Sequence record: MF327009
Reading direction: 5' to 3' (one strand)
DNA: 64,000 nucleotides
From: Shigella phage Sf25
Shown here: positions 384-59,445 of the stretch, piece by piece
How positions within the stretch are numbered: position 1 is the first letter of the stretch
How the letters are laid out: every line of letters begins with the position of its first letter
The notes under the pieces: model-generated
What the model was told of the DNA's origin: nothing
Database searches by the model: none
The model's input: the letters and a program-made list of their open reading frames with translations, nothing else
Program-made: the position numbers and the translations under genes

Positions 384-2897
384 TCATAATTTACAGGATG
401 AACAATCTTCAGCTTTTGGAGTTTCTATTTCATAATCATCAGTACCAGAACCGTCACGGGTATTATGATAATAGAAATTTTTTCCGCCAAAATACCAAAA
501 ATATAAAAGGTCATCAATCATTATTGACATTGGAACCTTTCCTTTTGGAAAAATCTGCGGGTCATAATATGTATTAGCTGAAGCTGATTGACATACCCAT
601 TTCAGCATAATAGCTACTTGCGTAAGATAAGGTTTATTGCCTTTCTTAGCTAATTTCCACGTATAATCATAGAGGTCTATGTTATGCTCAATATTGGGCA
701 CGACTTGATTAAAGGAACCCTCTTTTGATTCTTTAACAGAGACTGGTCCACGTGGAGGCTCGATACCGTTTGTACTGTTAGAAACTTGGGAAGATGACTC
801 ACATGGCATAAGTGCTGATAATGTGCTATTACGGATGCCAAAGAGCTTAAGGTCTTCCCGCAGCGACGACCAGTCACAAACGTATTTTGGAGCTGCGATT
901 TGGTCAATCTTTTTATTGTACCAGTCGATAGGTAATTCGCCTCGAGACCAACGAGTGTCTGAATAATATTCGCAAGGTCCTTTTTCTTTGGCGAGCTTAA
1001 TGGATGCTTTAATGAGTCCATACTGTAATCTCTCAAATAGTTCATGTGTTAAATCGTTAGCATCTTCATAAGAAGCAAAATTACTTGCCAGCCAAGCTGC
1101 ATAGTTAGTAACACCTACACCAAGATTTCGACGCTTTTTAGCTTTTTCTGCTTCAGGAACTGGATATCCTTGGTAATCCAAAAGATTATCAAGAGCACGA
1201 ACTTGGACTTCTGCCAATTCATTAATTTTATCTTGGTCTTGCCAATCAAAGTTATCTAACACAAATGCAGATAACGTACACAATCCAATTTCAGCATCAG
1301 GACTATTCACATCATTTGTTGGAATAGCAATTTCACAGCACAAGTTGCTCTGACGAATAGGTGCCTTTTCACGAATAAACGGAGTATAGTTATTCGTATT
1401 ATCTATGAACTGTACATAAATCCTTGCTGTTCCTGAGCGTTCAGTCATGAGCAATTCAAATAGTTCACGGGCTTTAATACGCTTTTTACGAATATTAGGG
1501 TCTTTTTCTGCTGCTTCGTATAATTCACGGAAACGGTCTTGGTCTTTAAAATAAGAATAATAAAGCTCGCCACCCATTTCATGCGGACTGAACAAAGTAA
1601 TGTAATCGTTCTTTCCGAATCGTTCCATCATCAAATCATTCAGCTGAACACCATAATCCATATGACGGATACGGTTTTCTTCTACACCTTTGTTATTTTT
1701 CAAAACGAGAAGATTTTCAACTTCCAAATGCCAAATAGGATAATAAGCAGTAGCAGCGCCGCCACGAATTCCACCCTGTGAGCATGATTTAACAGCAGTC
1801 TGAAAATGTTTCCAAAAAGGAATAACACCAGTATGGCGTACTTCACCTGTGCCAATCTTAGAACCTTCGGCACGAATCATACCAACGTTAATACCAATTC
1901 CATAATCCATATGACGGATACGGTTTTCTTCTACACCTTTGTTATTTTTCAAAACGAGAAGATTTTCAACTTCCAAATGCCAAATAGGATAATAAGCAGT
2001 AGCAGCGCCGCCACGAATTCCACCCTGTGAGCATGATTTAACAGCAGTCTGAAAATGTTTCCAAAAAGGAATAACACCAGTATGGCGTACTTCACCTGTG
2101 CCAATCTTAGAACCTTCGGCACGAATCATACCAACGTTAATACCAATTCCAGCGCGTTTGGAGATATATTCAACAATTGAAGCAGAAGCCTTATTGATAG
2201 ACTTTAATGAATCACCTGCTTCAATAACAACGCATGAACTAAACTGCCGAGTTGGAGTACGGCAACCAGCCATAATAGGAGTTGGCAGTGAAATCTGTCG
2301 AGTAGATACTGCTTCATAAAAACGGATAACGTGTTTTAATCTATCAACAGGTTCATCTTGATGCAATGCCATTCCAATAGTCATAAATGCAAACTGTGGA
2401 GTTTCATAAATTTGACCAGTGGTTTTATCTTTAACTAGATATTTTTCTTTTAATTGCATCGCCCCGGAATAAGTAAATTCCATATCCCGCTCGTGCTTAA
2501 TTTTTGATTCTAAAAATGTAATTTCTTCGGCAGAATATTTTGACAACAATTCAGGGTCATATTTACCTTCATTTACACAGTAAGAAATGTGGTCAATAAA
2601 TGAACGTGGTTCATACTGCCCATAAACATGCTTACGAAGAGCGAACATTAAACAGCGTGCAGCTACATATTGATAATCAGGCTCTTCAACTGAAATAGAA
2701 TTCGCAGCAGCCTTAATTACAATGGTTTGAATGTCATCAGTTGTCATTCCATCACGGAGATATGATTTAATATTTTCATATAATTCATAAGGATCTACAG
2801 ATGTTCCTTCAGCTGCCCAAGATAAAACTTTAATAATTTTTTGCGGGTCAAAGCTCTGAGAAACACCACTACTTTTGATAACATTAATTAATTGCAT
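384..2897 (-). CDS. nrdA: Aerobic ribonucleotide reductase large subunit NrdA; 837 aa including an 83-aa in-frame internal tandem duplication
   Basis: ORF track 837 aa; class I RNR alpha sequence; peptide GIGINVGMIRAEGSKIGTGEVRHTGVIPFWKHF...ENRIRHMDY occurs twice in tandem. Confidence 0.9.
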   Translation of the reverse strand: MQLINVIKSSGVSQSFDPQKIIKVLSWAAEGTSVDPYELYENIKSYLRDGMTTDDIQTIVIKAAANSISVEEPDYQYVAARCLMFALRKHVYGQYEPRSFIDHISYCVNEGKYDPELLSKYSAEEITFLESKIKHERDMEFTYSGAMQLKEKYLVKDKTTGQIYETPQFAFMTIGMALHQDEPVDRLKHVIRFYEAVSTRQISLPTPIMAGCRTPTRQFSSCVVIEAGDSLKSINKASASIVEYISKRAGIGINVGMIRAEGSKIGTGEVRHTGVIPFWKHFQTAVKSCSQGGIRGGAATAYYPIWHLEVENLLVLKNNKGVEENRIRHMDYGIGINVGMIRAEGSKIGTGEVRHTGVIPFWKHFQTAVKSCSQGGIRGGAATAYYPIWHLEVENLLVLKNNKGVEENRIRHMDYGVQLNDLMMERFGKNDYITLFSPHEMGGELYYSYFKDQDRFRELYEAAEKDPNIRKKRIKARELFELLMTERSGTARIYVQFIDNTNNYTPFIREKAPIRQSNLCCEIAIPTNDVNSPDAEIGLCTLSAFVLDNFDWQDQDKINELAEVQVRALDNLLDYQGYPVPEAEKAKKRRNLGVGVTNYAAWLASNFASYEDANDLTHELFERLQYGLIKASIKLAKEKGPCEYYSDTRWSRGELPIDWYNKKIDQIAAPKYVCDWSSLREDLKLFGIRNSTLSALMPCESSSQVSNSTNGIEPPRGPVSVKESKEGSFNQVVPNIEHNIDLYDYTWKLAKKGNKPYLTQVAIMLKWVCQSASANTYYDPQIFPKGKVPMSIMIDDLLYFWYFGGKNFYYHNTRDGSGTDDYEIETPKAEDCSSCKL
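1651..2148. repeat. Exact direct tandem duplication, 2 x 249 bp, inside nrdA (boundaries ambiguous by about 3 nt)
   Basis: Sequence beginning cataatccatatgacggatacggttttcttc recurs at 1652 and 1901 with no mismatch seen by eye. Confidence 0.9.
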
Positions 2898-2915: not shown

Positions 2916-3271
2916 TCGTCTTTAAACAATCGGTTAACTATATGAGCTATTATATCACCATGACACGGCTTTGGTTTACATGTGCATCCTAGCCTCATTC
3001 CACGTAAAGGCTCTAAATGTGCTTTAGTTATTTCTCCGGATTTAATTCGACGTATAAAATCTTTTTTGAATAATTCAATGGCAGCCTCCCGGCTCGTCTT
3101 TAAACAATCGGTTAACTATATGAGCTATTATATCACCATGACACGGCTTTGGTTTACATGTGCATCCTAGCCTCATTCCACGTAAAGGCTCTAAATGTGC
3201 TTTAGTTATTTCTCCGGATTTAATTCGACGTATAAAATCTTTTTTGAATAATTCAATGGCAGCCTCCCGGC
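2916..3271. repeat. Exact direct tandem duplication, 2 x 178 bp, spanning the 3' end of a small ORF just upstream of the nrdA start
   Basis: cgtctttaaacaatcggttaactatatgagc... recurs at 2917 and 3095. Confidence 0.9.
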
Positions 3272-6441: not shown

Positions 6442-6887
6442 TACTTTTTGAAAGTTTTTCGCAAAAGTTCAATGATTTCATCTACATTGTTTTCGTCAAC
6501 AATGCAGTGAATTTTTGTTACGCCAGAAACCTTGTCTATGACTTCATCTACATTGTTTTCGTCAACAATGCAGTGAATTTTTGTTACGCCAGAAACCTTG
6601 TCTTTGACTTCATCTTCTTCAGAAGTCGGTTCTTTATACTCACGAAAACAATGAAATTCATCTTCGCAAATTTCTAAAAGTCTATCTTTGAGGTAAAAAT
6701 GCTTTCCATTTGCGCATTCAATGTGTTTTACTGCTTTATATCCATTAGCGACGGAAACTTCTTTAACTTCAAACCATCCGCCATTATCTCGAATAGCTTT
6801 AACGATTGATGAATTAGAACGTGGGCTATAATTAATAAATGTATCAATAAGTCTTGGAACAAGTTCATACTTTTTGCCAATATACAT
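6441..6887 (-). CDS. Hypothetical protein carrying an in-frame 22-aa tandem repeat
   Basis: ORF track 148 aa; DKVSGVTKIHCIVDENNVDE repeated. Confidence 0.55.
   Translation of the reverse strand: MYIGKKYELVPRLIDTFINYSPRSNSSIVKAIRDNGGWFEVKEVSVANGYKAVKHIECANGKHFYLKDRLLEICEDEFHCFREYKEPTSEEDEVKDKVSGVTKIHCIVDENNVDEVIDKVSGVTKIHCIVDENNVDEIIELLRKTFKK
6477..6608. repeat. Near-exact direct tandem duplication, 2 x 66 bp
   Basis: ttcatctacattgttttcgtcaacaatgcagtgaatttttgttacgccagaaaccttgtct occurs at 6477 and 6543. Confidence 0.85.
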
Positions 6888-8212: not shown

Positions 8213-8310
8213 TTTTATTTCCTTTTTAATTTAATTAACAGTTGGTGCTATGACGATGTATGACCTCATAGCTGGTCAGTGAGATAATTATAATCTATTT
8301 ATAATAAGCA
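8213..8310 (-). promoter_or_regulatory. Gene 32 5' control region: A/U-rich leader (candidate autoregulatory operator) plus overlapping late (TATAAATA, 8296-8303) and MotA-box-like middle promoter elements
   Basis: Minus strand reads TTGCTTATTATAAATAGATTATAAT ... AATTAAATTAAAAAGGAAATAAAAATG. Confidence 0.5.
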
Positions 8311-8311
8311 A

Positions 8312-9136
8312 TTAATACTTGCAAGATTTCACAGTTTCAATAAAAACTTTTTTAGCTTCCTGTGAATCAATATTTAAAATTTTTCTATAAGCCTTTAACT
8401 TTATAGAATAATTATTCCAAACTAAATTATCAGTTTGTTGATCATGTTTATCAATTATATTTAAAAACGAATCAAGCAAGATAAACGTCTCAAACGAAAT
8501 TATGTTCGATTGCAGAAGTTTAAAAATATAACTTGACTGAACTTTTGGATTATACTCAAAAATTTCTTTAAAAGCAGAAACTTCAACTTTTTTACTAAAA
8601 TAATAAATGTTGCGAATATCTTCTTCAAACTTAAATTTAATTTGCTTTAAGCGTCCGATATATTCACGATAAAACACAAGTGCATCAGCGTCAGAGATGT
8701 CACCAATCCAAGCATCTTGGTTAGCAACCAAATTGCTTATAAAGATTAAAGCAAGTTCCTTTAATTTATATTTTTCTGATAACTTCTGGAAAAAATACTT
8801 ATCCCTTCGATTAGTTTTTTCACAACGAACAACAGAAGGACGTAAAAGATTTTCGTCGATAGCTTCTGACTGAATTTTTTCAATTATACCCGAAGGAATA
8901 AATTTAGCAAATTGAGTTTCAGGAATAGAATTTTCTTCTAAGAACGCTGTTGTAGCTTCAAGATAACTCATTCCAAACTCTTCTACCATTTTTTCAATAA
9001 TAAATCCATTTTCTTGGCGGTCAAGAAGCTTTGCTATTTCATCCTTTTCTTTCTTAATTGAAAGTTCTTTTTCTGAAAGACCGGTCTCATCGACCGGACG
9101 AATATCATTTAGAGAAAACTGTGTCATAAAGTTCAA
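8312..9136 (-). CDS. Apparent in-frame fusion ORF: acidic N-terminal part (gp33-like late transcription factor) joined to basic C-terminal part (gp59-like helicase loader)
   Basis: 274 aa; junction near 8806-8812 (...RCEKTN/RRDKYFFQ...); only one ORF between dsbA and gene 32 where T4 has two genes. Confidence 0.55.
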   Translation of the reverse strand: MNFMTQFSLNDIRPVDETGLSEKELSIKKEKDEIAKLLDRQENGFIIEKMVEEFGMSYLEATTAFLEENSIPETQFAKFIPSGIIEKIQSEAIDENLLRPSVVRCEKTNRRDKYFFQKLSEKYKLKELALIFISNLVANQDAWIGDISDADALVFYREYIGRLKQIKFKFEEDIRNIYYFSKKVEVSAFKEIFEYNPKVQSSYIFKLLQSNIISFETFILLDSFLNIIDKHDQQTDNLVWNNYSIKLKAYRKILNIDSQEAKKVFIETVKSCKY

Positions 9137-16134: not shown

Positions 16135-19100
16135 ATGGCTACTTTAAAACAAATACAATTTAAAAGAAGCAAAACTGCAGGTCAACGTCCTGCTGCTTCA
16201 GTATTAGCCGAAGGTGAATTGGCTATAAACTTAAAAGACCGTACTCTTTTTACTAAAGATGACTCGGGAAATATTATTGATTTAAGCATTTCTGCCGGTG
16301 GTAACATTAGTGGAAATATCACTCAAAATGGTGATTATTTACAAAACGGCACGTATAATCTTAATGGAAATCAGTTTGTTTATGCAGGAAAGTATATTGA
16401 ATTCTTGCCAAAAACTGCTGGAAATGGTGCTTGGGCAAATCAGCACACAAATAAAGCTCCAATTTTCACCGATTTGAGTTCAACTACTTCAACTTCTGAA
16501 TATCATCCGCTAATTAAACAACGTTATAAAGATGGAACGTTTTCATTAGGGACTTTAGTTTCTGAAGGCTCAATGAAGATACACTATATCGATGAAACTG
16601 GCACTTCAAAATATTGGACTTTCCGACGTGATGGTGGTTTTGTTGTTGATAGTGGTAGTTTAACTGTTACTGCTGGAAACATATCTGCTTCAGGCAATAT
16701 TAATTCGGCATCAGGGGTTGTTTCAGCTCCTCAAATTAATACAAAAACCATTGTTTTAGATACAAAAGCATTTGGACAATATGATTCGCAGTCATTAGTT
16801 CAGTATGTTTATCCTGGCACTGGCGAAACAAACGGTATAAACTATCTTCGTAAAGTTCGCGCAAAATCAGGTGGTACAATTTATCATGAAATAGCTTCAG
16901 CTCAAAGTGGAAAAAGCGATGAAATTTCGTGGTGGACTGGAAATACAGCCGTTAATAAACAAATGGGTCTTCGTAATGATGGTGCAATGGTATTACGTCG
17001 TTCACTTGCTATTGGCACAATTACTACAGATGAAAACGTAAATAACTATGGATCTGCTGGAGCAATGGGAGAAAAATACATTGTTCTTGGAGATGCGTCA
17101 ACTGGACTAGCTTATAAAAAGACAGGAGTTTATGACTTAGTTGGTAGTGGTTTATCTGTTGCTTCTATCACTCCCGACAGTTTTCGTAGTACCCGTAAAG
17201 CAATTTTTGGACGTTCTGAAGACCAAGGCGGTACATGGCTTCTTCCTGGTCAAAACGCTGCTCTTCTTTCAGTTCGTACAGATATTGATCAAAATAATAA
17301 CGGTGATGGTCAAACTCATATTGGATATAATAGTAACAGCAAGTTTTATCATTATTTTAGAGGCAGAGGCCGAATGGCTGTTGGAATGGCTGAAGGTCTT
17401 ATTGTTGAGCCTGGAATTTTAGATATTAAAACTGGTTCAAATACTGTTTCTATTAGAGCTGATGGCGGAATTTCATCTACTCAGCGTCTTTCATTGCAGA
17501 ATGGTATATTTTTATCTTCTGACGGAAATAACAACGGTATATCGTTTAAAGCTTCTAGCAGTATAGATGGAACTAAAACTCTTAATTGGGATGCTGGTAC
17601 TCGTGCAGGTCAAAACAAAAATACAGTAATTTTAAAAGCATGGGGAAATTCATTTAATACAAGTGGTGGAACTGATAGACATACTGTATTTGAAGTTTCT
17701 GATTCGCAAGGATACTACTTTTATGCTCAACGTACTACCCCTGCATCCGGTCAAACAGTAGGTCCTATTAATTTTAAATTTAATGGTACTGTAGAAACCG
17801 GTCATATCAATGGATTAGGTAATATTACTTTATCTGGGGCAGTTATAGCAGATTCTGCTAATATTAAAGGACCGCTAAAAATATCTAATGCTAATACAGC
17901 TGATGCTTTTAGAATATGGAACGCTGAATATGGAGCCATTTTCCGTCGTTCAGAAACATCATTGCATATTATTCCTACACTTAAAGATGCAGGGGAAAAT
18001 GGTGGAATAAGTAATCTTCGCCCATTAAGTATTGATCTTTCAAACGGATTTGTGCAAATGCATCATTCTCTTTCTGTGGGGAATACAGTAAGAACGAATG
18101 GATTGTTTGCTGTGGATACTTCAGCTGCTCTTGTTGCAATTAACAGATGTTCCTATTGTGAAACAAAGATACGTTCAAGGGAATAGCACCTATTCATTAG
18201 GTACTTTAATTAATGGTGGTGATTTCCGTTTACATTACCATGAAGGCGGTGACAGTTCTTCAACAGGTGCAGTTATAAAAGATATTTCCTGGGAATTTAA
18301 ACGTAATGGTGATTTCTATTCGCCAGGTCGTTTACGTACAGGAAATATCTATATTGGAACTGATGGTAATATCACGGGTGGTTCTGGTAACTTTGCTAAC
18401 TTGAATACAACTTTAAACCGTAAAGTTAATTCTGGTTTTATTACTTATGGAGCAACTGCAGGTTGGTACAAGTTTGCAACAGTAACAATGCCTCAAGCTA
18501 CATCAACCGTTTCAATTACAGTCACTGGCGGAAATGGATTTAATTCTGGATCATTTAATCAGTGTGCAATTTCTGAAATTGTTCTTCGTACAGGAAACAA
18601 TAATCCTCTGGTGATACATATGACATTTATGTTAATATGGGAACATATGCTAATCAGTTGATATTTAACTATAGTTCTGTTGATAATGCCACAGTTCAAA
18701 TTATTGGCGCATTCAGTTCAGCTCAAAATCCTGTTGATGCATTGCCAGAAACATATGTTAAAGGTCAGGTAGCAGATGTATTGACTAACTTAGTTGATTC
18801 TGGAAAAACGAAGCGTTTTGTTGCTGAATCTGAAATAGCTATTAATAATCAAACTGGATTACGTATTACGAGTAATGGTGATAAATCTGGTTCAAATTCA
18901 GTATTATTCAGAAATGATGGATCAGCGTTTTATATTCTTTTAACAGATAAAAACGCAGCAGATGGAAATACGACTGCCACAGAAGGAGATTGGAATGGTA
19001 AACGTCCTTTCCAAATTAATATGACTTCTGGTGAAGTAACATTCGGAAATAATATTAATATTTCTGGAAACGGAAGCATTACTTGGACAAAAGCCGGAGC

Positions 19101-19770
19101 AAACCCTAGAAATATGAGAATATTTCATGCAGGTGATGCTTCTCGTGGTAACCGTATTGAAATCGCAGATGATACTAATTATATTGCTTACTTTGAAAAA
19201 ACTCCAGGTGGAGCTAACCGCTTTGTAGTTAATGGTGCTACTGTAGCTGGTGTTAATCAAATGAATTCATTTGGTATTAACATCAATAACGCGCTTGGTG
19301 GAAATAGTATAGCATTTGGTGATAATGACACGGGTATTAAGCAAAACGGCGATGGATTATTAGACATTTATGCGAATGGTGTGCAAACGTTCCGTTTCCA
19401 AAACGGTGATTTGTACTCATATAAAAATATAAATGCCCCAAACGTTTATATTCGTTCTGATATTCGCTTAAAATCTAATTTCAAACCTATCGAAAATGCA
19501 CTTGATAAAGTTGAAAAACTCAATGGTGTCATTTATGATAAAGCTGAATATATCGGTGGAGAGGCAATTGAAACTGAAGCGGGTATTGTGGCTCAAACGT
19601 TACAAGACGTTTTACCAGAAGCCGTCCGTGAAACAGAAGACAGCAAGGGTAATAAAATACTCACTGTTTCTTCTCAAGCCCAGATTGCTCTTCTGGTTGA
19701 AGCTGTGAAAACGCTTTCTTCTCGTGTAAAAGAACTTGAATCTAAACTTCTTGAATCTAAACTTATGTAA
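16135..19770 (+). pseudogene. 37: Long tail fibre distal subunit gp37 (T2-type with C-terminal intramolecular chaperone domain), interrupted by two frame changes (frame 1, +1, frame 1)
   Basis: Three ORF-track pieces 16135..18186, 18098..18661, 18637..19770, each with fibre-like sequence; C-terminus ...IRSDIRLKSNFKPIENALDKVEKLNGVIYDK. Confidence 0.6.
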
Positions 19771-19800: not shown

Positions 19801-20498
19801 ATGGCAATTGTAGGTGTTCCTGGCTGGATTGGTGAATCTGCCGTGAATGAAACAGGACAGCGTTGGATGGATGCTGCAATGAGAGCAGTCCGTGTTTCAG
19901 TTCCCGGTTGGATGAGCTCAATGGCCGGACAATCTAAAGAAGTATATTATAGCATTGGTGCTAGTAATTCTTATAATAAAGATACATTAATAAACTGAAT
20001 GCATACGTGACACTTAATATCAATTCAGGCGTGCATGTTTGGGGCCGTGGCGGGAATGGCGGAAATAACTCTGCCGGTGGAGCAGGAGGAACTGCAATAA
20101 ATAATGGAATTGGAACTAGATTGCGTATTAACAACAATGGTGTTATCGCAGGAGGCGGTGGCGGCGGTGGAGGCGGATATTATTCTCCTTTTTCACAAAT
20201 GAAATTGACTTTTGGCGGTGGCGGCGGTCGTCCATTTGGTGCTGCTGGCGGGTCTGCTAATATGGAACAGGGCGCTACTGCTGGTACTATTTCTGCACCT
20301 GGTAAAGGGTCTGTCAATGGTATCTATAATGGCGGGAATGGCGGTGATGCTGGTGCCGCAGGTGGTAAATGTAATATTCGTGGGCAAGGATCAGAATATA
20401 ACGGCGGTGCGGCCGGTAAAGCTGTTACTGGTAATGCTCCAACTTGGACTAAGGTTGGTACAATATATGGCCCTCTGATATTCTATTTGGTGTTCTAG
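19801..20498 (+). pseudogene. 38: Receptor-recognising adhesin gp38 (T2-type, glycine-rich motifs), split into two reading frames
   Basis: N-terminal 65-aa ORF (MAIVGVPGWIG...) ends at a stop at 19996-19998; the glycine-rich part (GGGGGGGGYY...) follows in another frame from 20007. Confidence 0.55.
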
Positions 20499-20503
20499 AT
20501 CGC

Positions 20504-21100
20504 TTGTTCAAAGATAACGCTACCGGGAAAGTTCTTGCTTCCCGGGTAGCTGTCGTAATTCTTTTATTTATGATGGCGATTGTTTGGTATAGGGGAGATA
20601 GTTTCTTTGAGTACTATAAGCAATCAAAGTATGAAACATACAGTGAAATTATTGAAAAGGAAAGAAATGCACGCTTTGAATCTGTCGCCCTGGAACAACT
20701 CCAGATAGTTCATATATCATCTGAGGCAGACTTTAGTGCGGTGTATTCTTTCCGCCCTAAAAACTTAAACTATTTTGTTGATATTATAGCATACGAAGGA
20801 AGATTACCTTCAACAATAACTGAAAAATCACTTGGAGGATATCCTGTTGATAAAACTATGGATGAATATATAGTTCATTTAAATGGACGTCATTATTATT
20901 CTGACTCAAAATTTGCTTTTTTACCAACTAAAAAGCCTACTCCCGAAATAAACTACATGTACAGTTGTCCATATTTTAATTTGGATAATATCTATGCTGG
21001 AACGATAACCATGTACTGGTATAGAAATGATCATATAAGTAATGACCGCCTTGAATCAATATGTGCTCAGGCGGCCAGAATATTAGGAAGGGCTAAATAA
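20504..21100 (+). CDS. t: Holin T, lacking the conserved N-terminal residues
   Basis: 198 aa from an internal Met (MFKDNATGKVLASRVAVVILLF...); SDILFGVLDRL is encoded upstream in frame but has no start codon and is preceded by an in-frame TAA. Confidence 0.8.
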   Translation: MFKDNATGKVLASRVAVVILLFMMAIVWYRGDSFFEYYKQSKYETYSEIIEKERNARFESVALEQLQIVHISSEADFSAVYSFRPKNLNYFVDIIAYEGRLPSTITEKSLGGYPVDKTMDEYIVHLNGRHYYSDSKFAFLPTKKPTPEINYMYSCPYFNLDNIYAGTITMYWYRNDHISNDRLESICAQAARILGRAK

Positions 21101-25575: not shown

Positions 25576-25679
25576 TAGTAGATAACAACACAAATGTTAA
25601 ATATGCACACATACCCTGGGCTAAAGCTTGAAATTATTACGATAGAACTGCATCACATGTTCGTTATGGAAATTACTCA

Positions 25680-26138
25680 TTAATATGCCTGCAAAACAAA
25701 TTTAAAGTTATCAGCCAACATACGGTTCATTTCTTCAAGTGTTTGATACTCAGAATGATGATTACGAGTAAACGCTAAAGCTAACTGTCCTTTTCCAAAT
25801 CCCGTCGTCAGAGGTTTCATCTTAGAAGCAGGCAGATAAAATACTGTGTATACCATATTGTTATTTGCAATAGTACGTGCAAGCTGAGACCGACGTTGAC
25901 GAATATGACTTAGAACTGCACTGAATCCTTGCTTAGAACGCTGATTACCTACATAAAATCGTGCAGACACACATGGATTACTAAATGGACGACCATCTAA
26001 TTTACTTACTAAAAAGTAAAATCCAGGTTTAGATAAAATATCTTTATGCGGAGTTCCCAAAAACCACTCACCACCCTTGATTGTACCAATAACAGTTGCG
26101 CCTGCATTATTCAGATCAGTAACAGTCATATATTTCAT
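25680..26138 (-). CDS. ndd: Nucleoid disruption protein Ndd
   Basis: Start [13 protein letters not shown] with GAGGA RBS; about 152 aa. Confidence 0.8.
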
Positions 26139-26529: not shown

Positions 26530-26718
26530 TTATTTTACACCATTCCAAATTGTTTCAACTACAGATTTTAAGCCATTTTGATGAATGTCCATTCCGACTA
26601 CCGCCATCAAATAGATTCCAACTACGTTTAACATATCAATCATTAAAACGATTGGGAATATACTCAAAACTACTAGTATTATAACTACATTCCATATAGC
26701 TTTAATAATCTTTTTCAT
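26530..26718 (-). CDS. Small membrane protein
   Basis: Start MKKIIKAIWNVVIILVVLSIFPIVL with GGAGG RBS; 62 aa. Confidence 0.5.
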   Translation of the reverse strand: MKKIIKAIWNVVIILVVLSIFPIVLMIDMLNVVGIYLMAVVGMDIHQNGLKSVVETIWNGVK

Positions 26719-27857: not shown

Positions 27858-28119
27858 TTAGACTTTCCTTTTTACCGCTGAGATAAGCGTTATACACTTT
27901 AAGAGTACCGTAGTAAATTCGGTCATTTTCATCTAAAGACACACGGTCAAGTTCATCAAGTTCCTTTTTATCCATGACTATAACATCATTGCAATAAAGA
28001 AACCCAAGTTTTTCGTGACCAAACTCAAATTTATTACAGTACACAATATTAGCGTGATGATTTCCGTGCAGTTTAATCTCTTTTATGTCGGAATCACCGA
28101 TATTCATACAATAAATCAT
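27790..28119 (-). CDS. Hypothetical protein (overlaps denB start by about 68 nt)
   Basis: ORF track 109 aa. Confidence 0.45.
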   Translation of the reverse strand: MIYCMNIGDSDIKEIKLHGNHHANIVYCNKFEFGHEKLGFLYCNDVIVMDKKELDELDRVSLDENDRIYYGTLKVYNAYLSGKKESLNAENESGFTETISDSDIYPIEQ

Positions 28120-28144
28120 AATTTTTCCTTAAAACAAAAGGGCC
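28120..28144 (-). terminator. Intrinsic terminator with UUCG tetraloop
   Basis: Minus strand AAGGGC-UUCG-GCCCTT followed by TTTTGTTTT. Confidence 0.65.
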
Positions 28145-28157
28145 GAAGCCCTTTATT

Positions 28158-28352
28158 TTACTTGAATTGTGCAATTCTTTTCTCTAGACATTCAGCATAA
28201 GATTTCATTGAGATGAACTGTGAAAGCAGCAGTTCTTGCTCAACTGCACTAACCGTTAGAAACTTTGTGCTTTCTAAAAATTTGCTCAGTGCATTAATTT
28301 TGAGCATTAATTGATCGTATTCTTCTTTTACTCGTGCTTGATAACCTAACAT
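28158..28352 (-). CDS. Hypothetical protein
   Basis: ORF track 64 aa; AAGGAAA RBS. Confidence 0.5.
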   Translation of the reverse strand: MLGYQARVKEEYDQLMLKINALSKFLESTKFLTVSAVEQELLLSQFISMKSYAECLEKRIAQFK

Positions 28353-29330: not shown

Positions 29331-31757
29331 TTAGGCCGCAAGGGCCTTCATAGTTTTAGCGATTTGAGAAACTTCATCATCACTTAAAGAGTTGCGATAA
29401 CCGATGAAGTCGGAAACAATACGGAATTTCTTGGTAAACTCAGCAACCATTTTATCACTGTTTTTTGAAGCATTATTTGATAATACATCAAAAAGATTAG
29501 TTACTGTCCAGATGTCATGACCGATGGTACCTTTTCCACCGTTGAAATATACGCCCCGCAATGAACTAACTATATTAGCGAGTCGTGTATATTCTTCAGA
29601 AACTTCATCTGTACTGAAGTACTTCATCATAAAATCTAGTTCAGGATACTTGATAATTTTATCAATATATCGTTGAGCTGAACTTGAATAACCTACGTAC
29701 TTATCATAATCTACATCATCAAAAGCATCTACATATAAATCACGCAGAGTTTCAAAAATACATTGGCACTGACCGAGTTCTTTTACCTTTTTCTGCAAAA
29801 GCGGACGAATAACATAAAATTCATTAATGCCAATAAGATTAGCCATACGAATCAAAATATTCATAGATGGATGACAAAGAGATGTAGTACCATCCATAGA
29901 GAAAATATCAGAACGATGCATATACGCTACATAACCAGTAATTTCATCTGCTTCTGATGTGAGCGTAAACAGTTCCTCTTTTTCCCATCGCCCATCTTTA
30001 ATTTCAAACTTAAATGCTGTAGCAGCTTTAGGACGAGGAGCTTTACTTTTAACTACCTTTGGAATATAGCTTTTAACTAAAGCTTCAATTTCTGACAAAT
30101 AATGAATGTTAACTTCATCACTTTCAAACATCGCCATAATATCAGGAAGTAAATCAATCTGCGATTCTACTTCTGGATTAATAAACAGAAGACGCTCATT
30201 GTGATGAATATTCAAAGTGTTATTAAATTCACTATCATCTAACGCATGTGCTAATCCACGAACAATATTAACACGATTTTTAATATTATCAATAACGATA
30301 TTAATTTTTGTTGTATTAATACCAAACAGACGATAACTTGATGCAACGGCTGAAGTTTCATGACTTTGCTTAATGCGTTTCAGTCGAGGGTCAAGATTTA
30401 CTTCATACACAACTCCTGCATTGCATAACTTACTGTCAGGTTCAAACATGCTCTGCATCTTTTTATATGACAGATTTTTAGTCGTGAATTTGACTGAATT
30501 ACTAATCATATAATCTCGAGCAGAATATCCCATCTTCATCAATTCACGATATGTGTGACGAGGAGATGTAGATTCTTTAAATCGTTTTACATCTTCATTG
30601 AATGCCTTCTCACTAAGCTCTTTAACACGCTCAATAATATTTTTACGAGTACGATCATCTAGTGAAAGAGCTTCGCGTGATGGAGCAATATCAAGTGAAC
30701 CCATTGGAAACTTAATGTAATTCACTTCATTGCGAATGCTTAGCCAGTTACGGTCTCTAATAACACCATCGATAGGATAAACAATACCGCCATAGATAGC
30801 ATATAATCCACCACGATCAGGCCAGTATCTTTCTGGATTTACACCATAATAATCATCAAAATCAGGAAAATAATCAATTTCAATAATATTTTTACGAGTA
30901 CGATCATCTAGTGAAAGAGCTTCGCGTGATGGAGCAATATCAAGTGAACCCATTGGAAACTTAATGTAATTCACTTCATTGCGAATGCTTAGCCAGTTAC
31001 GGTCTCTAATAACACCATCGATAGGATAAACAATACCGCCATAGATAGCATATAATCCACCACGATCAGGCCAGTATCTTTCTGGATTTACACCATAATA
31101 ATCATCAAAATCAGGAAAATAATCAATTTCGCGGTCAAGACCATTAATGATAGCCAAATCTTTGAACGGTCGCATGATATAAGAAACTTCATAAGCAAAG
31201 TTTCTAAAGTCTTTTTCTTCAACTGGAACTACGATTTCAATACCAGTTTTATCATCTGGACCCATTTCTTTTACGAATGTAGGTTTAATCTGTGGGCCAT
31301 CACCATCCATGTAAGCTACATAACCACGAATTTCACCTTTATGATACGAAGTAATACTAAACGTATCAGTATAACTAAACGGAGATTTAGAACCTAAACC
31401 AAATCCGCCAATAAAGTCATTAGATTCAGCCTTAGATGAACTGAAGTATGAATTATACAGCCCAGGAGAATTATCATCACCCTGAATATCAAAATCACTC
31501 ATACCCGGACCAAAATCTCGACAAACAAATCGTGGATCTAATCGTCCTGGAACTTGAATGATAAATTTTTCAGGATTTCCATTAAGTGCATGAGCATCAA
31601 TCATGTTAGTAATCAATTCACGGACTACTGCGCGAATCTTGTTTGTATACAAATCAGATGACAGAATTTTAAATACTTTAGGATTTGCTGCGATGCTAAA
31701 TGCTTTTGATTTAGAACCATTGCCAAGAATTGTTTCTTTTTCAGTGGTGATAATCAT
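29331..31757 (-). CDS. rIIA: rIIA protein; 808 aa including an 83-aa in-frame tandem duplication
   Basis: N-terminal GHKL-like ATPase sequence; peptide [25 protein letters not shown]...RTRKNII occurs twice. Confidence 0.9.
30632..31129. repeat. Exact direct tandem duplication, 2 x 249 bp, inside rIIA
   Basis: caataatatttttacgagtacgatcatctagtgaaagagc... begins at 30632 and 30881. Confidence 0.9.
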
Positions 31758-42809: not shown

Positions 42810-42839
42810 ATCATATCATCGTTAGAAAGGAAAGTAAAC
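42810..42839 (-). promoter_or_regulatory. Putative early promoter for modB (GTTTAC-N18-TATGAT); part of it is re-created in the adjacent duplication
   Basis: Reverse complement GTTTACTTTCCTTTCTAACGATGATATGAT, then GGAGG RBS. Confidence 0.5.
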
Positions 42840-43228
42840 AACTTTTTGAATTATTTTGCCCAGGGAGCCCAAGGCGGAGGGTCAAGATGGTATGAAGCTA
42901 GTTCTTCTAGAAGAGCATCTGGGGCTTCAATTCCATAATTCTGTAATACTATACGGTACTCTTTCTTATAATCACTAGAATCATTCTGGTTATTCGTAGA
43001 ATGATTATCTTCTAACATTCATATCATCGTTAGAAAGGAAAGTAAACAACTTTTTGAATTATTTTGCCCAGGGAGCCCAAGGCGGAGGGTCAAGATGGTA
43101 TGAAGCTAGTTCTTCTAGAAGAGCATCTGGGGCTTCAATTCCATAATTCTGTAATACTATACGGTACTCTTTCTTATAATCACTAGAATCATTCTGGTTA
43201 TTCGTAGAATGATTATCTTCTAACATCT
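42813..43228. repeat. Exact direct tandem duplication, 2 x 208 bp, covering a promoter/intergenic region and most of a small ORF
   Basis: atatcatcgttagaaaggaaagtaaacaactttttgaattattttgcccagggagccc... begins at 42813 and 43021. Confidence 0.9.
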
Positions 43229-44557: not shown

Positions 44558-44899
44558 TCAATCGCAAGATGTAGATGAACAACTAGAATCGCAAGAACTT
44601 CCACACGAATCGCCCGTCCATACATGAACAGGAACATTAGTGTCATATGAATCAGAACTAGACTGTGTATTCTGCGTATTAGATGATGTAGTAGGTGTTG
44701 ACCAGCGCCAAGGATTTTTATAATATTCTTGGGCTTCTTCATAAGTCATAGTAACTGCTTCTACTGTTCCATCTCCCATATAAACATATTCAACTACAGT
44801 TAAAGGAAGGTAGTCATTTGAAATAGGAACTACACCTTCCCCAGGAGTCGTAGAGAAAAAATCCGTAAAGAAACTTTTAAACCAATTAAAGATAAACAT
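44558..44899 (-). CDS. Hypothetical protein with Ser/Cys-rich C-terminus
   Basis: 113 aa ending ...[18 protein letters not shown]. Confidence 0.45.
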
Positions 44900-45475: not shown

Positions 45476-45530
45476 ATTATTTATAATAAATTCTCGCGGC
45501 TTTTAAGTCGTCGTTTATTTAAATGAGCTA

Positions 45531-46293
45531 TTAATAGCCTCGATCTTGACGAGCGAAGTTTTCAGCATTTTTCAGATAATAAAGTTTAAAGATTTCCTCA
45601 GCTGACATTCCAAGAGCAATGAATTTATTCATGAAAAAGTGAAATTGGTCAATCAGTTCAAATTTAATTTCAAGCTGATCTTCAGGAGATAAGTCTTGAA
45701 TTTTCTTGGATTGCATTTCAGAATAACGTTTCTTCCAAGGTTTCCATACAGCAGAAGCTTCTTTTTCACCATTACTCATACCACCAAGAGAAGTATATAG
45801 CTCGCGAGTTTCATCTGCGATATAATCGTCTTGGTTTCGCAACCAAGCAAGAACTTCTCCTGCAGTTTCAAGTGAATCAGGATGACGATTTGTTTCTGGT
45901 TTATCATTAGCCAAACGAATCTGTAAATGCCGCTGCATGTCAAATTTTCTTGGATTGCATTTCAGAATAACGTTTCTTCCAAGGTTTCCATACAGCAGAA
46001 GCTTCTTTTTCACCATTACTCATACCACCAAGAGAAGTATATAGCTCGCGAGTTTCATCTGCGATATAATCGTCTTGGTTTCGCAACCAAGCAAGAACTT
46101 CTCCTGCAGTTTCAAGTGAATCAGGATGACGATTTGTTTCTGGTTTATCATTAGCCAAACGAATCTGTAAATGCCGCTGCATGTCAAGCATAACCTGCAA
46201 TGGGTCAATACTGTGCATAATATACTCAGCATATGCACGATTTGCTTTATCAACACCTTCGATCAAATGAGCACATTCATTAAAGTGAGCCAT
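45531..46293 (-). pseudogene. 56: dCTPase/dUTPase gp56 (MazG-like) disrupted by a frameshifting 244-bp tandem duplication
   Basis: N-terminal frame MAHFNECAHLIEGVDK... (AAGGAAA RBS) terminates at the repeat junction near 45940; C-terminal part ...ALGMSAEEIFKLYYLKNAENFARQDRGY is in another frame. Confidence 0.6.
45700..46187. repeat. Exact direct tandem duplication, 2 x 244 bp (not a multiple of 3), inside gene 56
   Basis: attttcttggattgcatttcagaataacgtttcttcc... begins at 45700 and 45944. Confidence 0.9.
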
Positions 46294-54536: not shown

Positions 54537-55381
54537 TCACCGTTATAATCTTTTTTCACAATATGAGTTTCGCCAGTATTCCACCAATGATCAACCAAGT
54601 AAAAATGACGAGAATATACATGAAGACTTCCAACATTCCATATAATAGAACCTGCTTTATACTGACGAGTTGAATCGCCGGCATTCAAATCAGATACTAA
54701 TTTATCTAATACGTATTTTTGCCATGCATAATCATTACGGAATCCGAAGACCACGTCATTTGAGCGCATGCTTACTACTGCATTGACTTTCTTATCACGA
54801 ATCAGGTACTGTACTGTATTAGTACACATGAAATCTGACATACCATCTTTATTGTAGTCAAATTGCATGGATGGACGAGTCATGCTTACTACTGCATTGA
54901 CTTTCTTATCACGAATCAGGTACTGTACTGTATTAGTACACATGAAATCTGACATACCATCTTTATTGTAGTCAAATTGCATGGATGGACGAGTATAAAT
55001 CATGATACCACGTCGAGAATCAGGATTTTGACCAAGTTCAGCTAAACACATATCATACTGGGCATAGTTATCTTCTGACCAAATAGCCCAACCATAATTC
55101 GAGTTAATTTCGCCTTTAGAAGATGCTACCTGCTGCCAAATCTTTGGTGTTTCGCCTGGAATATCTTTGACAAACAGACTTTGAGACTTGTACCATTCAA
55201 GTTCACGCTGAATGTATTCATCATTAAGAGCGCCAAAAATAAAGGGTTCATCTGCTACAAATGATGCGCCAATAATTTCAATAGTTTTAACACCGGTTTT
55301 ATCAACTACGAAATCTTTTTCTTTTAATGCAAGCCCCAAATGAAGACGGATTTCTTCAACTGTCATAAAGTCACTAATCAT
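54527..55381 (-). CDS. 42: dCMP hydroxymethylase gp42; 284 aa including a 38-aa in-frame tandem duplication
   Basis: ThyA-like fold sequence; peptide TRPSMQFDYNKDGMSDFMCTNTVQYLIRDKKVNAVVSM occurs twice. Confidence 0.9.
   Translation of the reverse strand: MISDFMTVEEIRLHLGLALKEKDFVVDKTGVKTIEIIGASFVADEPFIFGALNDEYIQRELEWYKSQSLFVKDIPGETPKIWQQVASSKGEINSNYGWAIWSEDNYAQYDMCLAELGQNPDSRRGIMIYTRPSMQFDYNKDGMSDFMCTNTVQYLIRDKKVNAVVSMTRPSMQFDYNKDGMSDFMCTNTVQYLIRDKKVNAVVSMRSNDVVFGFRNDYAWQKYVLDKLVSDLNAGDSTRQYKAGSIIWNVGSLHVYSRHFYLVDHWWNTGETHIVKKDYNGEWK
54767..54994. repeat. Exact direct tandem duplication, 2 x 114 bp, inside gene 42
   Basis: catgcttactactgcattgactttcttatcacgaatcagg... begins at 54767 and 54881. 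Confidence 0.9.
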
Positions 55382-56601: not shown

Positions 56602-59445
56602 TCAGCCAAACAGGAAGTCTAACGAAGCTTTTTCTTCATAGTCCATACCAGCCGATTCACACATGCCTGCAAGCGGTTTAACAAACGATTTTTGGAACAA
56701 AGTTGAGTAGTCAATCCAAGACAGTACGTCAGAACGAATTTCTTTTGGAAGTTCTGTACCCGACGGCCAAGCAATGCATTTGTCACCAAATGGATTTCCT
56801 TCACGCAATGGAAGAACCATTACTTTATTTCCATCCAAAATTGGAGCTACACCTAAACCGCTAACAGCTCGACGATAAGTTAGCACACCACGAATATGGA
56901 ACGGACATTTAAATCCTGGCCAACCTTTATCATCATATTTCGCTATATCGTTCGCAGTTTTTACTTCAGCAATAACTTTATAGTCAAGTTGACGATATTC
57001 TTTCTCGAAGTTCTTGTAATATTCTTGGACAGACTCTTCACCTTCCTGAAGAATACGACGAATACTTTCTTCGAGAGCTTCTTGGACCGCTTTAGGCGTT
57101 GAACTCTGCTGAGTTTCCATACCCATGATTTTTAGATGCGGTTCAGCAAATCGCTTATCTTCCATATCATATACGTTCAGAGCATAACGCTTTTTCGCTT
57201 TCCAAAATCCGCCAACGCCCTTTGAACCAAGTGGAGGGCAAGAAATAGCTTCACGGTCCATATGCATCAGATGCTCGCGGTTATTCATATAATCACATAA
57301 CTCACGATATGCAACATCAATCATAGGTTCCATCTTTTTCTTACCGAACTGATTCATGAATTCAACTAAATCGTTCTGCTCTTTGAATCGGTCAAGACCA
57401 ACTTTTTCAATAACTTTATCTACACAAACATATACCGAATCAGTATCACCTGCTGCAATGAAATCTTCGCCATTAGTTCCGCATACTTTATTCAGATATT
57501 CATTAATTTTACGAGCAATCCACTGAATACCAACTTGGCCGAAAATTGTGATAGCAGTAGCATTTCGCAAATCATAGTAACGGAAATGAATATTACCAAG
57601 AGCACCATAAAGACTGTTAATAAGAATTTTACGGTTCAGCTGATTTGTGTTAGCAAGTGTAGCTGCTTTTTCACACTCTTCGATCAAACTATTAAGAACA
57701 GATTCGGTGTAATTCGATAGTTCATTTAAGAAATCATCACTGAACTTAACATATCGTTCAACTTCTGGTTTAGTTGAGCAAGACCCTGCGCCTTTCATAA
57801 TAATCTTTTTAATAGCTTCGGCATTCATTTCTTCAGCGAACATTTTCTTTTTCCAATCTTTACGCTGGAAAAATACTTTAGCGATTTCCTTTGGAATGAT
57901 ACCTTCTTGATGCTTATCATACATCCATCCATTCGGAGAACAAGAATATTCATCACTCGGTTTAGGAGCTGTTCCTGCGATATATTCATGAATTGGATGA
58001 ACTTTAAACTGACCACGAATAGTCTCAGGACTAATGTTAACCTGACGAATAATGCTCGGATACAGAGACGTCAAGTCAAAACTCATAATATATCGACGAG
58101 CAATTGGTTTAGGTTCAAACACAAATGCACCCGGAAAACTCTGTTTAACGTGCGAACCTTGTTGAGGAATAACCTTATGTTCACCTTTCAATGAGTTAAA
58201 AATAATAGCATCCCAAGTTTTAATAGGACTCATTACACCGGAAAAAGGCATTTTAGCGTAATAAGACATACTTAAAACTAGATCGATAAACCCGCGAATT
58301 TTATCAATTGCTTGAACTGATTCTACGTCAATGATGTTATAACTAATGTATCGTTGATGATTAGTCTCACGAAGTTTATTAATAGGACCGTCGTATGGTA
58401 ATTTACCTTTTTTGGTTTCATGTTGAGCAACTGATTCCAAAGAGAATGACGGCAAATTAGTAAAAGCGAATTTCTTGTACAAATCTAAATAATCAAGAAT
58501 AGATACGCCATCAATAGAATAAATTTCTTTGCTGCCGTACATATTTTGAATTAGTTTGGATTTTACCCGACCGATTGGAGAGAAACGTTTCATACTGCGT
58601 TCGCCTAGAATCATTTTAACACGATTCATGATATATGGAACGTCAAACCCCTCAATATTCCAACCGGTAAAAATAGCAGGTCGTTTCTGTTCCCAGAGAT
58701 TGATATATTCCATGAGCATATCACGCTCATTATCGAATGGCATATAAATTACTCGGTCAAGAATTTCTTGAGGAACTTCATCACCACCTTCACAGTCAAG
58801 CTTAGCAGCTAACTTTGCATCCCATTTTGATACTGAACCGTACATTGAATTCAAAAGGTCGAAAACATAAAAACGATCGTCAATTGAATCGTAATGAGTG
58901 ATAGCATCAATTTCATATTCAGCTTTCATTGGGTCAGGAAATTTATCACCAGTAACCTCAATGTCACAGTTAGCTACACGAACACCGTACATTGAATTCA
59001 AAAGGTCGAAAACATAAAAACGATCGTCAATTGAATCGTAATGAGTGATAGCATCAATTTCATATTCAGCTTTCATTGGGTCAGGAAATTTATCACCAGT
59101 AACCTCAATGTCACAGTTAGCTACACGAACAAATTTTCGGTCATAAACAATTTCTGAACCATATGTATCACTGATATAAGCGAGTTTAAAATCGTTCATA
59201 CCGAGAGCTTCGAGACCGATGTCTTCCATTCGCTTCATCCAATCTCGAGCATCTTTCATTGATGGAAATTTTTGAGGAGCGCAGTTTTTACCATAGATGT
59301 CTTTGTACTTTGACTCTTCCTTACAATGCCTAAACATAGTTGGAAGATATTCTACTTCACGAGTACGTTCCTTTCCATTTTCATCAATATAACGTTCAAC
59401 AATATTATTTCCGACTGTTTCAATAGAGATATAAAATTCTTTCAT
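56602..59445 (-). CDS. 43: DNA polymerase gp43 (family B); 947 aa including a 49-aa in-frame tandem duplication in the N-terminal/exonuclease region
   Basis: Pol B motifs (DxxSLYPS-like FDLTSLYPSII, YGDTDS-like GDTDSVY); peptide VRVANCDIEVTGDKFPDPMKAEYEIDAITHYDSIDDRFYVFDLLNSMYG occurs twice. Confidence 0.92.
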   Translation of the reverse strand: MKEFYISIETVGNNIVERYIDENGKERTREVEYLPTMFRHCKEESKYKDIYGKNCAPQKFPSMKDARDWMKRMEDIGLEALGMNDFKLAYISDTYGSEIVYDRKFVRVANCDIEVTGDKFPDPMKAEYEIDAITHYDSIDDRFYVFDLLNSMYGVRVANCDIEVTGDKFPDPMKAEYEIDAITHYDSIDDRFYVFDLLNSMYGSVSKWDAKLAAKLDCEGGDEVPQEILDRVIYMPFDNERDMLMEYINLWEQKRPAIFTGWNIEGFDVPYIMNRVKMILGERSMKRFSPIGRVKSKLIQNMYGSKEIYSIDGVSILDYLDLYKKFAFTNLPSFSLESVAQHETKKGKLPYDGPINKLRETNHQRYISYNIIDVESVQAIDKIRGFIDLVLSMSYYAKMPFSGVMSPIKTWDAIIFNSLKGEHKVIPQQGSHVKQSFPGAFVFEPKPIARRYIMSFDLTSLYPSIIRQVNISPETIRGQFKVHPIHEYIAGTAPKPSDEYSCSPNGWMYDKHQEGIIPKEIAKVFFQRKDWKKKMFAEEMNAEAIKKIIMKGAGSCSTKPEVERYVKFSDDFLNELSNYTESVLNSLIEECEKAATLANTNQLNRKILINSLYGALGNIHFRYYDLRNATAITIFGQVGIQWIARKINEYLNKVCGTNGEDFIAAGDTDSVYVCVDKVIEKVGLDRFKEQNDLVEFMNQFGKKKMEPMIDVAYRELCDYMNNREHLMHMDREAISCPPLGSKGVGGFWKAKKRYALNVYDMEDKRFAEPHLKIMGMETQQSSTPKAVQEALEESIRRILQEGEESVQEYYKNFEKEYRQLDYKVIAEVKTANDIAKYDDKGWPGFKCPFHIRGVLTYRRAVSGLGVAPILDGNKVMVLPLREGNPFGDKCIAWPSGTELPKEIRSDVLSWIDYSTLFQKSFVKPLAGMCESAGMDYEEKASLDFLFG
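58837..59130. repeat. Exact direct tandem duplication, 2 x 147 bp, inside gene 43
   Basis: accgtacattgaattcaaaaggtcgaaaacataaaaacgatcg... begins at 58837 and 58984. Confidence 0.9.

What the first reader, a model, noticed from the sequence alone, without database searches (positions are those of the whole stretch)
19985..20015. Gene 38 adhesin split between its N-terminal domain and glycine-rich region
A 65-aa N-terminal ORF ends at a stop at 19996-19998; the glycine-rich receptor-recognition part resumes at 20007 in a different frame behind a GTG. This is consistent with an internal out-of-frame deletion of about 50 codons relative to T2-type gp38 (my recollection).
Basis: partly seen in the sequence, partly recalled or inferred. 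Interest (0 to 1): 0.55.

Follow-up and report, generated by a model that had tools for sequence, protein, structure and literature searches.

The report
Broken gp38 gene in corrupted sequence
The tail-fibre adhesin gene of this T4-like phage really is split by a 103-base out-of-frame deletion, but this is one of at least 17 randomly placed deletions and tandem duplications (seven of them perfect copies) that break essential genes across the window, so it is most likely damage to the sequence record, not biology.

Summary
A 65-aa ORF (19801-19998) carries the gp38 N-terminal attachment domain. The glycine-rich part resumes at 19998 in another frame, with its first start-like codon at GTG 20007. 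Intact relatives (JK1 99.5% identical, Sf24, ten contigs from other assemblies) show a blunt 103-nt deletion at 19997|19998. That is 34 codons plus 1 nt, not about 50 codons, and it removes residues 66-100 of a 261-aa gp38.

A second 72-nt deletion at 20470 removes the gp38 stop, the ribosome-binding site and the first 9 codons of holin t. Gene 37 carries two more frameshifting deletions (173 and 70 nt). The whole window holds 17 such lesions, each 66-249 nt: 8 tandem duplications (7 perfect) and 9 blunt deletions.

The lesions are uniformly spaced, are not enriched for multiples of 3, and damage gp43, gp42, gp56, gp62, gp59, gp37, gp38 and t. Untouched genes are 99.9-100% identical in protein to Sf24. 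No public collection searched contains the junction.

The split is therefore best read as selection-free corruption of the record (assembly, editing or simulation), not a two-part adhesin. Read support would settle it. Interest is low.

The parts
19801..19998 (+). gp38 5' fragment: a 65-aa ORF encoding the N-terminal attachment domain (three conserved Trp in GWIG, RWMD, GWMS) and ending at TGA 19996-19998, a stop created by the frameshift.
   Evidence: Pfam Gp38_N E 3e-19. Identical to Sf24 and 2 mismatches to JK1 over this stretch.
19997..19998 (.). Junction of the 103-nt deletion (AAACTG|AATGCA). It is blunt, with no microhomology at the join, and removes gp38 residues 66-100.
   Evidence: Alignment A1; junction printout. 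All best phage records span 204 nt for the 101-nt junction query, in 2 pieces.
19998..20498 (+). Remainder of gp38 (rest of the beta-helix plus the glycine-rich polyglycine-II sandwich and hypervariable loops) in a shifted frame. The mechanical ORF starts at GTG 20007 with no Shine-Dalgarno sequence upstream. Its last 9 codons (PLIFYLVF*) are holin sequence read out of frame.
   Evidence: Pfam GP38 E 3e-42. 99.6% nucleotide identity to JK1.
20470..20471 (.). Junction of a 72-nt deletion (1-nt ambiguity). It removes the gp38 codons GSRV plus the stop, the intergenic AAGGAGG ribosome-binding site and codons 1-9 of holin t.
   Evidence: the Sf24 holin aligns from residue 10.
20471..21100 (+). Holin t lacking its start codon, ribosome-binding site and first 9 residues. 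The remaining 209 residues are 100% identical to the Sf24 holin.
   Evidence: tblastn; ORF list.
16135..19770 (+). Gene 37 (distal long tail fibre, the partner that gp38 caps), broken into three ORFs by a 173-nt deletion at 18146|18147 and a 70-nt deletion at 18607|18608.

Best explanation
The window is a segment of a Tequatrovirus (T4-like) genome, colinear with Shigella phage Sf24, whose sequence record has been structurally corrupted. Seventeen short (66-249 nt) lesions are scattered through it: nine blunt-ended deletions and eight tandem duplications, seven of them 100% identical. The gp38 split is one of these deletions. It is 103 nt long, shifts the frame after codon 65 and creates a TGA stop. 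A second 72-nt deletion destroys the 3' end of gp38 and the 5' end of holin t. The lesions look position-blind and selection-blind, as expected from an assembly, polishing or concatenation fault, manual editing, or in-silico structural-variant simulation. They do not look like events in a replicating phage. Shown here: the lesions, their uniqueness to this window, and their incompatibility with viability. Inferred: that they arose in the record and not in a DNA molecule.
For: (1) The deletion is exact and unique. JK1, Sf24 and ten independent contigs that encode an identical gp36 all have intact 261-264-aa gp38, 218-aa holin and 1221-1303-aa gp37. None of the top-ranked matches among 50,697 phage records has the junction in one piece. 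The 29-mer junction is absent from the viral, metagenome and genome contig collections. The 163-aa product is not on record.

(2) The lesion type is window-wide. There are seven perfect tandem duplications of 114-249 nt. Blunt deletions of 70-173 nt have 0-1 nt of microhomology at all eight printed junctions. They are confirmed against several relatives.

(3) Essential genes are hit. gp56 and gp62 are frameshifted, gp59 lacks residues 1-52, gp43 polymerase carries a 49-aa internal duplication and gp42 a 38-aa one.

(4) Base-level quality is otherwise excellent. gp41, UvsX and gp44 are 100% identical in protein to Sf24 and gp34 is 99.9% identical.

(5) Lesion positions fit a uniform distribution (KS p=0.63, gap CV 0.93). 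Only 7 of 17 sizes are multiples of 3 (p=0.33 against 1/3). The cluster of four lesions in g37-g38-t is not significant (P=0.25).

(6) The lesion-bearing gp43 and gp42 products are not on record in any indexed assembly.
Against: No reads are available, so the lesions cannot be shown to be absent from real DNA. The exact parent genome was not found in any collection, so no lesion-free copy of the same strain could be produced. The specific fault is not identified: no common assembler error I know of gives blunt deletions and perfect tandem duplications limited to about 66-249 nt. The repeated sizes (249 twice, 173 twice) are unexplained. One duplication (6469-6600) is only 97% identical and was checked against Sf24 only, so it may be natural.
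Confidence: 0.85

Rival explanations
1. The deletions and duplications exist in a real DNA molecule: a non-viable or defective T4-like genome (for example from a heavily mutagenised or hyper-recombinogenic lineage, or an amplification chimera) that was faithfully sequenced. On this reading gp38 is a genuine pseudogene.
For: The junctions are clean and the flanks are of high quality. Illegitimate recombination in T4 can produce both deletions and tandem duplications (general knowledge, not tested here). Nothing in the sequence alone proves an in-silico origin.
Against: A genome with frameshifted gp56 and gp62, truncated gp59, and broken gp37, gp38 and t cannot replicate, make tail fibres or lyse, so it could not be propagated to sequencing depth. 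The untouched genes show no accompanying point-mutation decay (100% protein identity). Microhomology is 0-1 nt at all eight printed junctions. Positions are uniform and there is no bias toward multiples of 3.
Confidence: 0.11
2. A functional two-part adhesin. The 65-aa attachment domain and the glycine-rich receptor-binding part would be made as separate polypeptides, or joined by programmed frameshifting or re-initiation at GTG 20007.
For: The 65-aa ORF keeps a complete Gp38_N attachment domain with its own ribosome-binding site. The downstream part keeps all the glycine-rich motifs.
Against: No relative has this organisation. All have one ORF containing the extra 103 nt. There is no Shine-Dalgarno sequence before GTG 20007, and I saw no X XXY YYZ slippery heptamer at the TGA by eye. 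The 34 missing residues align to S16 gp38 (6F45) residues ~66-100, just after the N-terminal helical bundle, so they probably belong to the central beta-helix (position inferred; PMC6851490). The gp38 C-terminus and stop are also deleted, and its partner gp37 is frameshifted twice.
Confidence: 0.01
3. A reference-guided consensus or contig-concatenation artefact specific to hypervariable tail-fibre regions. Divergent segments received no coverage and were dropped, and overlapping contig ends were not trimmed.
For: Four lesions fall within 2.3 kb of g37-g38-t, the most variable region. The perfect duplications could be untrimmed contig overlaps. The gp38 body is JK1-like while its flanks are Sf24-like.
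Against: The clustering is not significant (P=0.25). Deletions also fall in genes that are 100% conserved (gp62, gp59/gp33, modA), where coverage drop-out is not expected. In g37 the divergent patch (18175-18358) does not coincide with the junctions, and the sequence next to both junctions is identical to Sf24. The gaps never exceed 173 nt. This is a sub-case of the best explanation and is not independent of it.
Confidence: 0.03

Closest known systems
T2/S16-type gp38 tail-fibre adhesin, e.g. Escherichia phage JK1 QXN68337.1 (261 aa); solved structure Salmonella phage S16 gp38, PDB 6F45
   Same: The gene sits in the same position between g37 and t. Nucleotide identity to JK1 is 99.5% over the retained parts. 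It has the same Gp38_N attachment domain and the same GP38 glycine-rich/hypervariable region. The intact relative aligns end to end with 6F45 chain D (E 3e-49).
   Different: The window copy lacks residues 66-100, which probably form the start of the central beta-helix, judged by alignment to 6F45 and the domain description in PMC6851490 and PMC12032242. It is frameshifted there, and it also lacks its last 4 codons and its stop.
Shigella phage Sf24 (MF327008), the closest overall genome
   Same: It is colinear over the whole window. Many blocks are 99.2-99.9% identical, and several proteins are identical.
   Different: Sf24 has none of the 17 lesions. Natural differences also exist: segG is present, small ORFs are present or absent, and the gp38 body is only 92% identical.
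Natural modular shuffling of gp38 and g37 (recombination at glycine-rich motifs)
   Same: The window's parent is a natural mosaic, with a JK1/slur-type gp38 body in an Sf24-like backbone and a unique divergent patch in g37 at 18175-18358.
   Different: Modular shuffling keeps the reading frame and the domain complement. The lesion here is blunt, out of frame, lies outside the glycine-rich motifs and is unique to this window.

Membership tests
T2/S16-type gp38 adhesin (Pfam PF21721 + PF05268) | N-terminal attachment domain (helical bundle with three conserved Trp) | tested here: met
   Gp38_N matches residues 1-42 of the 65-aa ORF, E 3e-19. W9, W22 and W37 are visible in the translation.
T2/S16-type gp38 adhesin (Pfam PF21721 + PF05268) | Glycine-rich motifs alternating with hypervariable segments (polyglycine-II sandwich) | tested here: met
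   GP38 profile positions 59-216 of 218 are matched by the 163-aa ORF, E 3e-42. The aligned region of the intact relative matches 6F45.
T2/S16-type gp38 adhesin (Pfam PF21721 + PF05268) | A single continuous ORF of about 250-265 aa, with a complete central beta-helix joining the two ends | tested here: not met
   103 nt (residues 66-100) are missing, with a frameshift and a TGA stop. The C-terminal 4 codons and the stop are also deleted.
T2/S16-type gp38 adhesin (Pfam PF21721 + PF05268) | Located immediately downstream of an intact g37, whose tip it caps, and upstream of t | tested here: inconclusive
   The gene order g37-g38-t is kept. However, g37 carries two frameshifting deletions and t lacks its 5' end.
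Programmed frameshift or naturally split gene | The split is conserved in related genomes | tested here: not met
   None of the top-ranked phage records carries the junction, and neither do 10 contigs from other assemblies. The junction 29-mer is absent from three contig collections.
Programmed frameshift or naturally split gene | A slippery site, or a ribosome-binding site for the downstream part | tested here: not met
   The 25 nt upstream of GTG 20007 are ATACATTAATAAACTGAATGCATAC, with no GGAG-like motif. I saw no X XXY YYZ heptamer at the stop by eye.
Natural indel polymorphism of T-even genomes | Shared with at least some relatives, and frame-preserving inside genes | tested here: not met
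   The lesion is unique to the window and 103 nt is not a multiple of 3. By contrast, genuine polymorphisms in the window (335 nt at 45499, 162 nt at 25680, the 15-nt repeat at the g37 3' end) are shared with some relatives.

The most novel reading that the evidence does not exclude
The lesions are real and record a T4-like genome caught in a hyper-rearranged, non-propagating state. It could be the product of a catastrophic template-switching or end-joining episode, or a defective genome complemented by a co-infecting helper. On that reading the gp38, g37 and t lesions would be part of a genome-wide burst of blunt 66-249-nt deletions and tandem duplications.
Probability: 0.05. Interest if true: 0.6.

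Novelty: not a real feature. Interest (0 to 1): 0.05.

Why it matters
If the split were biological, it would remove host recognition from a T2-type phage and might suggest a modular two-piece adhesin. It does not appear to be biological. The practical value is as a warning: this window cannot be used for gene-level inference. Any split gene, extended gene or internal repeat found in it should first be checked against the 17 lesion coordinates. These include a DNA polymerase with a 49-aa repeat, an rIIA and an NrdA each with an 83-aa repeat, and frameshifted gp56 and gp62.

Tried and rejected
(1) I searched for the junction in public data. A 29-mer spanning 19997|19998 gave no hit in viral contigs, metagenome contigs or genome contigs. 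A 101-nt junction query against 50,697 phage records gave only two-piece matches spanning 204 nt among the top-ranked records.

(2) I ran exact-product look-ups. The 163-aa ORF is not on record. The 65-aa ORF is found on two short contigs, but both simply end inside gp38 (…ATAAATT at the contig end). This is a selection effect of searching for an exact 65-aa product, so I rejected it as evidence for a natural short gene or for an assembly breakpoint.

(3) I hunted for the lesion-free parent. Strain-specific patterns (the g37 3' 15-nt repeat and the g37 divergent patch) gave no hits. Contigs encoding an identical gp36 or Dda are only 92-97% identical in nucleotide sequence. No parent was found.

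(4) I considered a chimera of contigs from different strains. I rejected it as a general explanation because the sequence next to the g37 junctions is identical to Sf24 and the divergent patch lies inside the block, away from the junctions.

(5) I considered coverage drop-out in hypervariable regions. I rejected it because deletions also hit fully conserved genes, because drop-out does not explain the perfect duplications, and because the clustering is not significant.

(6) I considered programmed frameshifting or re-initiation and rejected it.

(7) Several Sf24-relative gaps first counted as lesions turned out to be natural polymorphisms shared with other phages: 335 nt at 45499, about 174 nt at 44620, 162 nt at 25680, the 264-nt repeat copy at 27977-28240, and the absence of segG.

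Full report
WHAT IS THERE

The window is a segment of a T4-like (Tequatrovirus) genome. It is colinear with Shigella phage Sf24 from nrdA through genes 34-38, t, rIIA/B and gp43 to gp46.

ATG 19801 opens a 65-aa ORF that ends at TGA 19996-19998. A 163-aa ORF in another frame starts at GTG 20007 and ends at 20498. Pfam assigns the first ORF to the gp38 N-terminal attachment domain (PF21721, E 3e-19). It assigns the second to the body of the GP38 adhesin family (PF05268, E 3e-42, profile positions 59-216 of 218).

WHAT HAPPENED TO THE GENE

The retained parts are 99.5% identical to gp38 of Escherichia phage JK1, which has a single 261-aa ORF. A three-way alignment with JK1 and Sf24 shows two gaps in the window.

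- The first gap is 103 nt, between AAACTG (ending at 19997) and AATGCA (starting at 19998). It equals 34 codons plus one base, so the frame shifts and a TGA follows at once. Homology resumes at 19998 (N-A-Y-V-T-L-N-I-N-S-G), three codons before the GTG. The join is blunt.
- The second gap is 72 nt, at 20470. It removes the last four gp38 codons (GSRV), the stop, the intergenic AAGGAGG ribosome-binding site and the first nine codons of holin t. As a result, the 163-aa ORF ends in nine codons of holin sequence read out of frame. The holin aligns only from residue 10, at 100% identity.

The intact JK1 protein aligns end to end with the S16 gp38 crystal structure 6F45. The published description gives an N-terminal three-helix bundle with three Trp, a short linker, a central beta-helix, and a polyglycine-II sandwich built from loop extensions of that helix (PMC6851490; PMC12032242). 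On that basis the missing residues 66-100 probably form the start of the central beta-helix. This last step is inferred from the alignment and not measured.

There is no Shine-Dalgarno sequence before GTG 20007. I saw no slippery heptamer at the stop when reading the sequence.

The size ("about 50 codons") is too large, and the second lesion was missed.

IS THE ORGANISATION SHARED?

It is not shared with any relative examined.

- All of the best matches among 50,697 phage records span 204 nt for a 101-nt junction query, in two pieces.
- Ten contigs from independent assemblies that encode an identical gp36 all carry a 261-264-aa gp38, a 218-aa holin and a 1221-1303-aa gp37.
- The junction 29-mer is absent from the viral, metagenome and genome contig collections.
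- The 163-aa product is not on record.
- The 65-aa product is on record only as gene calls cut off by contig ends. This follows from searching for an exact 65-aa sequence, and I give it no weight.

THE DECISIVE CONTEXT

Gene 37, immediately upstream, is broken into three ORFs by a 173-nt deletion at 18146|18147 and a 70-nt deletion at 18607|18608. Both are confirmed against Sf24, PinkRuby, teqsoen and others.

Comparing the whole window with Sf24 and scanning for repeats shows the pattern is window-wide.

- Seven tandem duplications are 100% identical: 249 nt at 1900, 178 nt at 3094, 249 nt at 30880, 208 nt at 43019, 244 nt at 45943, 114 nt at 54881 and 147 nt at 58984.
- One further duplication, 66 nt at 6535, is 97% identical.
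- Nine deletions are present: 173 nt at 8810, 173 nt at 18147, 70 nt at 18608, 103 nt at 19998, 72 nt at 20470, about 136 nt at 25631, 130 nt at 26625, 156 nt at 41991 and 139 nt at 60191. The eight junctions I printed all have 0-1 nt of microhomology.

I separated these lesions from genuine polymorphisms by checking other relatives. The 335-nt, roughly 174-nt and 162-nt gaps, the one-copy 264-nt repeat and the absence of segG are shared with other phages and are natural. The 15-nt LESKL repeat at the g37 3' end is shared with two contigs.

CONSEQUENCES FOR THE PROTEINS

- gp56 (dCTPase) is frameshifted by the 244-nt duplication.
- gp62 (clamp loader) is frameshifted by the 139-nt deletion.
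- gp59 lacks residues 1-52, and gp33 lacks its last residues.
- NrdA.1 is frameshifted.
- DNA polymerase gp43 carries a 49-aa internal duplication and gp42 a 38-aa one.
- rIIA and NrdA each carry an 83-aa duplication.
- ModA lacks 52 residues.
- The untouched genes are pristine: gp41, UvsX and gp44 are 100% identical in protein to Sf24, and gp34 is 99.9% identical.

A phage with this genome could not replicate its DNA, build long tail fibres or lyse its host. There is also no sign of the point-mutation decay that would accompany long-term loss of function.

STATISTICS

- The 17 lesion positions fit a uniform distribution (KS p=0.63; gap coefficient of variation 0.93).
- Only 7 of 17 sizes are multiples of three (p=0.33 against the 1/3 expected without selection).
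- Finding four lesions within the 2.4 kb of g37-g38-t is not unusual (P=0.25).
- Sizes are confined to 66-249 nt for both deletions and duplications.
- The lesion-bearing gp43 and gp42 products are not on record in the indexed assemblies.

INTERPRETATION

The gp38 split is one draw from a process that was blind to position and to selection, and that cut out or duplicated short segments across this sequence. The most likely origin is corruption of the record: an assembly, polishing or concatenation fault, editing, or simulated structural variants. I put this at about 0.85.

A faithfully sequenced but non-viable DNA molecule cannot be excluded without reads (about 0.11). A functional two-part adhesin is effectively excluded (about 0.01).

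Two specific artefact models were tested and do not explain the pattern on their own. The first is coverage drop-out in hypervariable regions. The second is untrimmed joins between contigs from different strains. Against both, deletions also fall in fully conserved genes. In addition, the divergent patch in g37 does not coincide with the junctions.

I could not find the lesion-free parent strain. The repeated sizes (249 twice, 173 twice) remain unexplained.

VERDICT

It is not a biological feature worth pursuing, and interest is low. The useful outcome is the list of lesion coordinates, which should be consulted before interpreting anything else in this window.

Noticed in passing
window 1651-2148, 2916-3271, 30631-31128, 42811-43226, 45699-46186, 54767-54994, 58837-59130: Seven 100%-identical tandem duplications (249, 178, 249, 208, 244, 114 and 147 nt). 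They lie inside nrdA, nrdA.1, rIIA, the modA.2 region, gp56, gp42 and DNA polymerase gp43. They are absent from Sf24 and, where checked, from six other relatives.
   Followed up: yes
window 8809|8810, 25630|25631, 26625|26626, 41990|41991, 60190|60191: Blunt deletions of 173, about 136, 130, 156 and 139 nt relative to the relatives checked. They hit gp59/gp33, ac, the ndd.2a/ndd.4 small ORFs, modA and gp62.
   Followed up: yes
window 18146|18147 and 18607|18608: Gene 37 carries two frameshifting deletions (173 and 70 nt). Together they total 243 nt, so the third ORF returns to the original frame.
   Followed up: yes
window 6469-6600: A 66-nt tandem duplication in frd.2 with 2 mismatches between the copies (97%). 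It was compared only with Sf24, so it could be natural or another lesion.
   Followed up: partly
window 18175-18358: A divergent patch inside g37, with 54 mismatches to Sf24 across the 461-nt block, almost all of them in this stretch. No close match was found in the phage, viral-contig or metagenome collections. It is probably a genuine, strain-specific receptor-region mosaic of the parent phage.
   Followed up: partly
window 19998-20470 versus flanks: The gp38 body is 99.6% identical to JK1/slur-type phages but only about 92% identical to Sf24, whereas the flanking g37 3' end and t are Sf24-like. This is a natural adhesin module swap in the parent.
   Followed up: partly
window 19738-19767: A 15-nt tandem repeat (cttgaatctaaactt twice, encoding LESKL-LESKL) at the g37 3' end. 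It is absent from Sf24 and JK1 but appears to be present in two contigs from other assemblies (L010, L013), judging from their alignment gap counts, so it is probably natural.
   Followed up: yes
window 8276-8310; 25680; 44620-44633; 45499; 27977-28240: Differences from Sf24 that are natural polymorphisms and not lesions. They are the absence of the segG homing endonuclease, the presence or absence of small ORFs (162, about 174 and 335 nt), and one copy instead of two of a 264-nt repeat (the Sf24 gp121/gp122 paralogues). Several are shared with other phages.
   Followed up: partly
lesion sizes, whole window: All 17 lesion sizes fall within 66-249 nt, and two sizes recur (249 nt twice, 173 nt twice). 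This suggests a bounded generating process, but I could not identify it.
   Followed up: no
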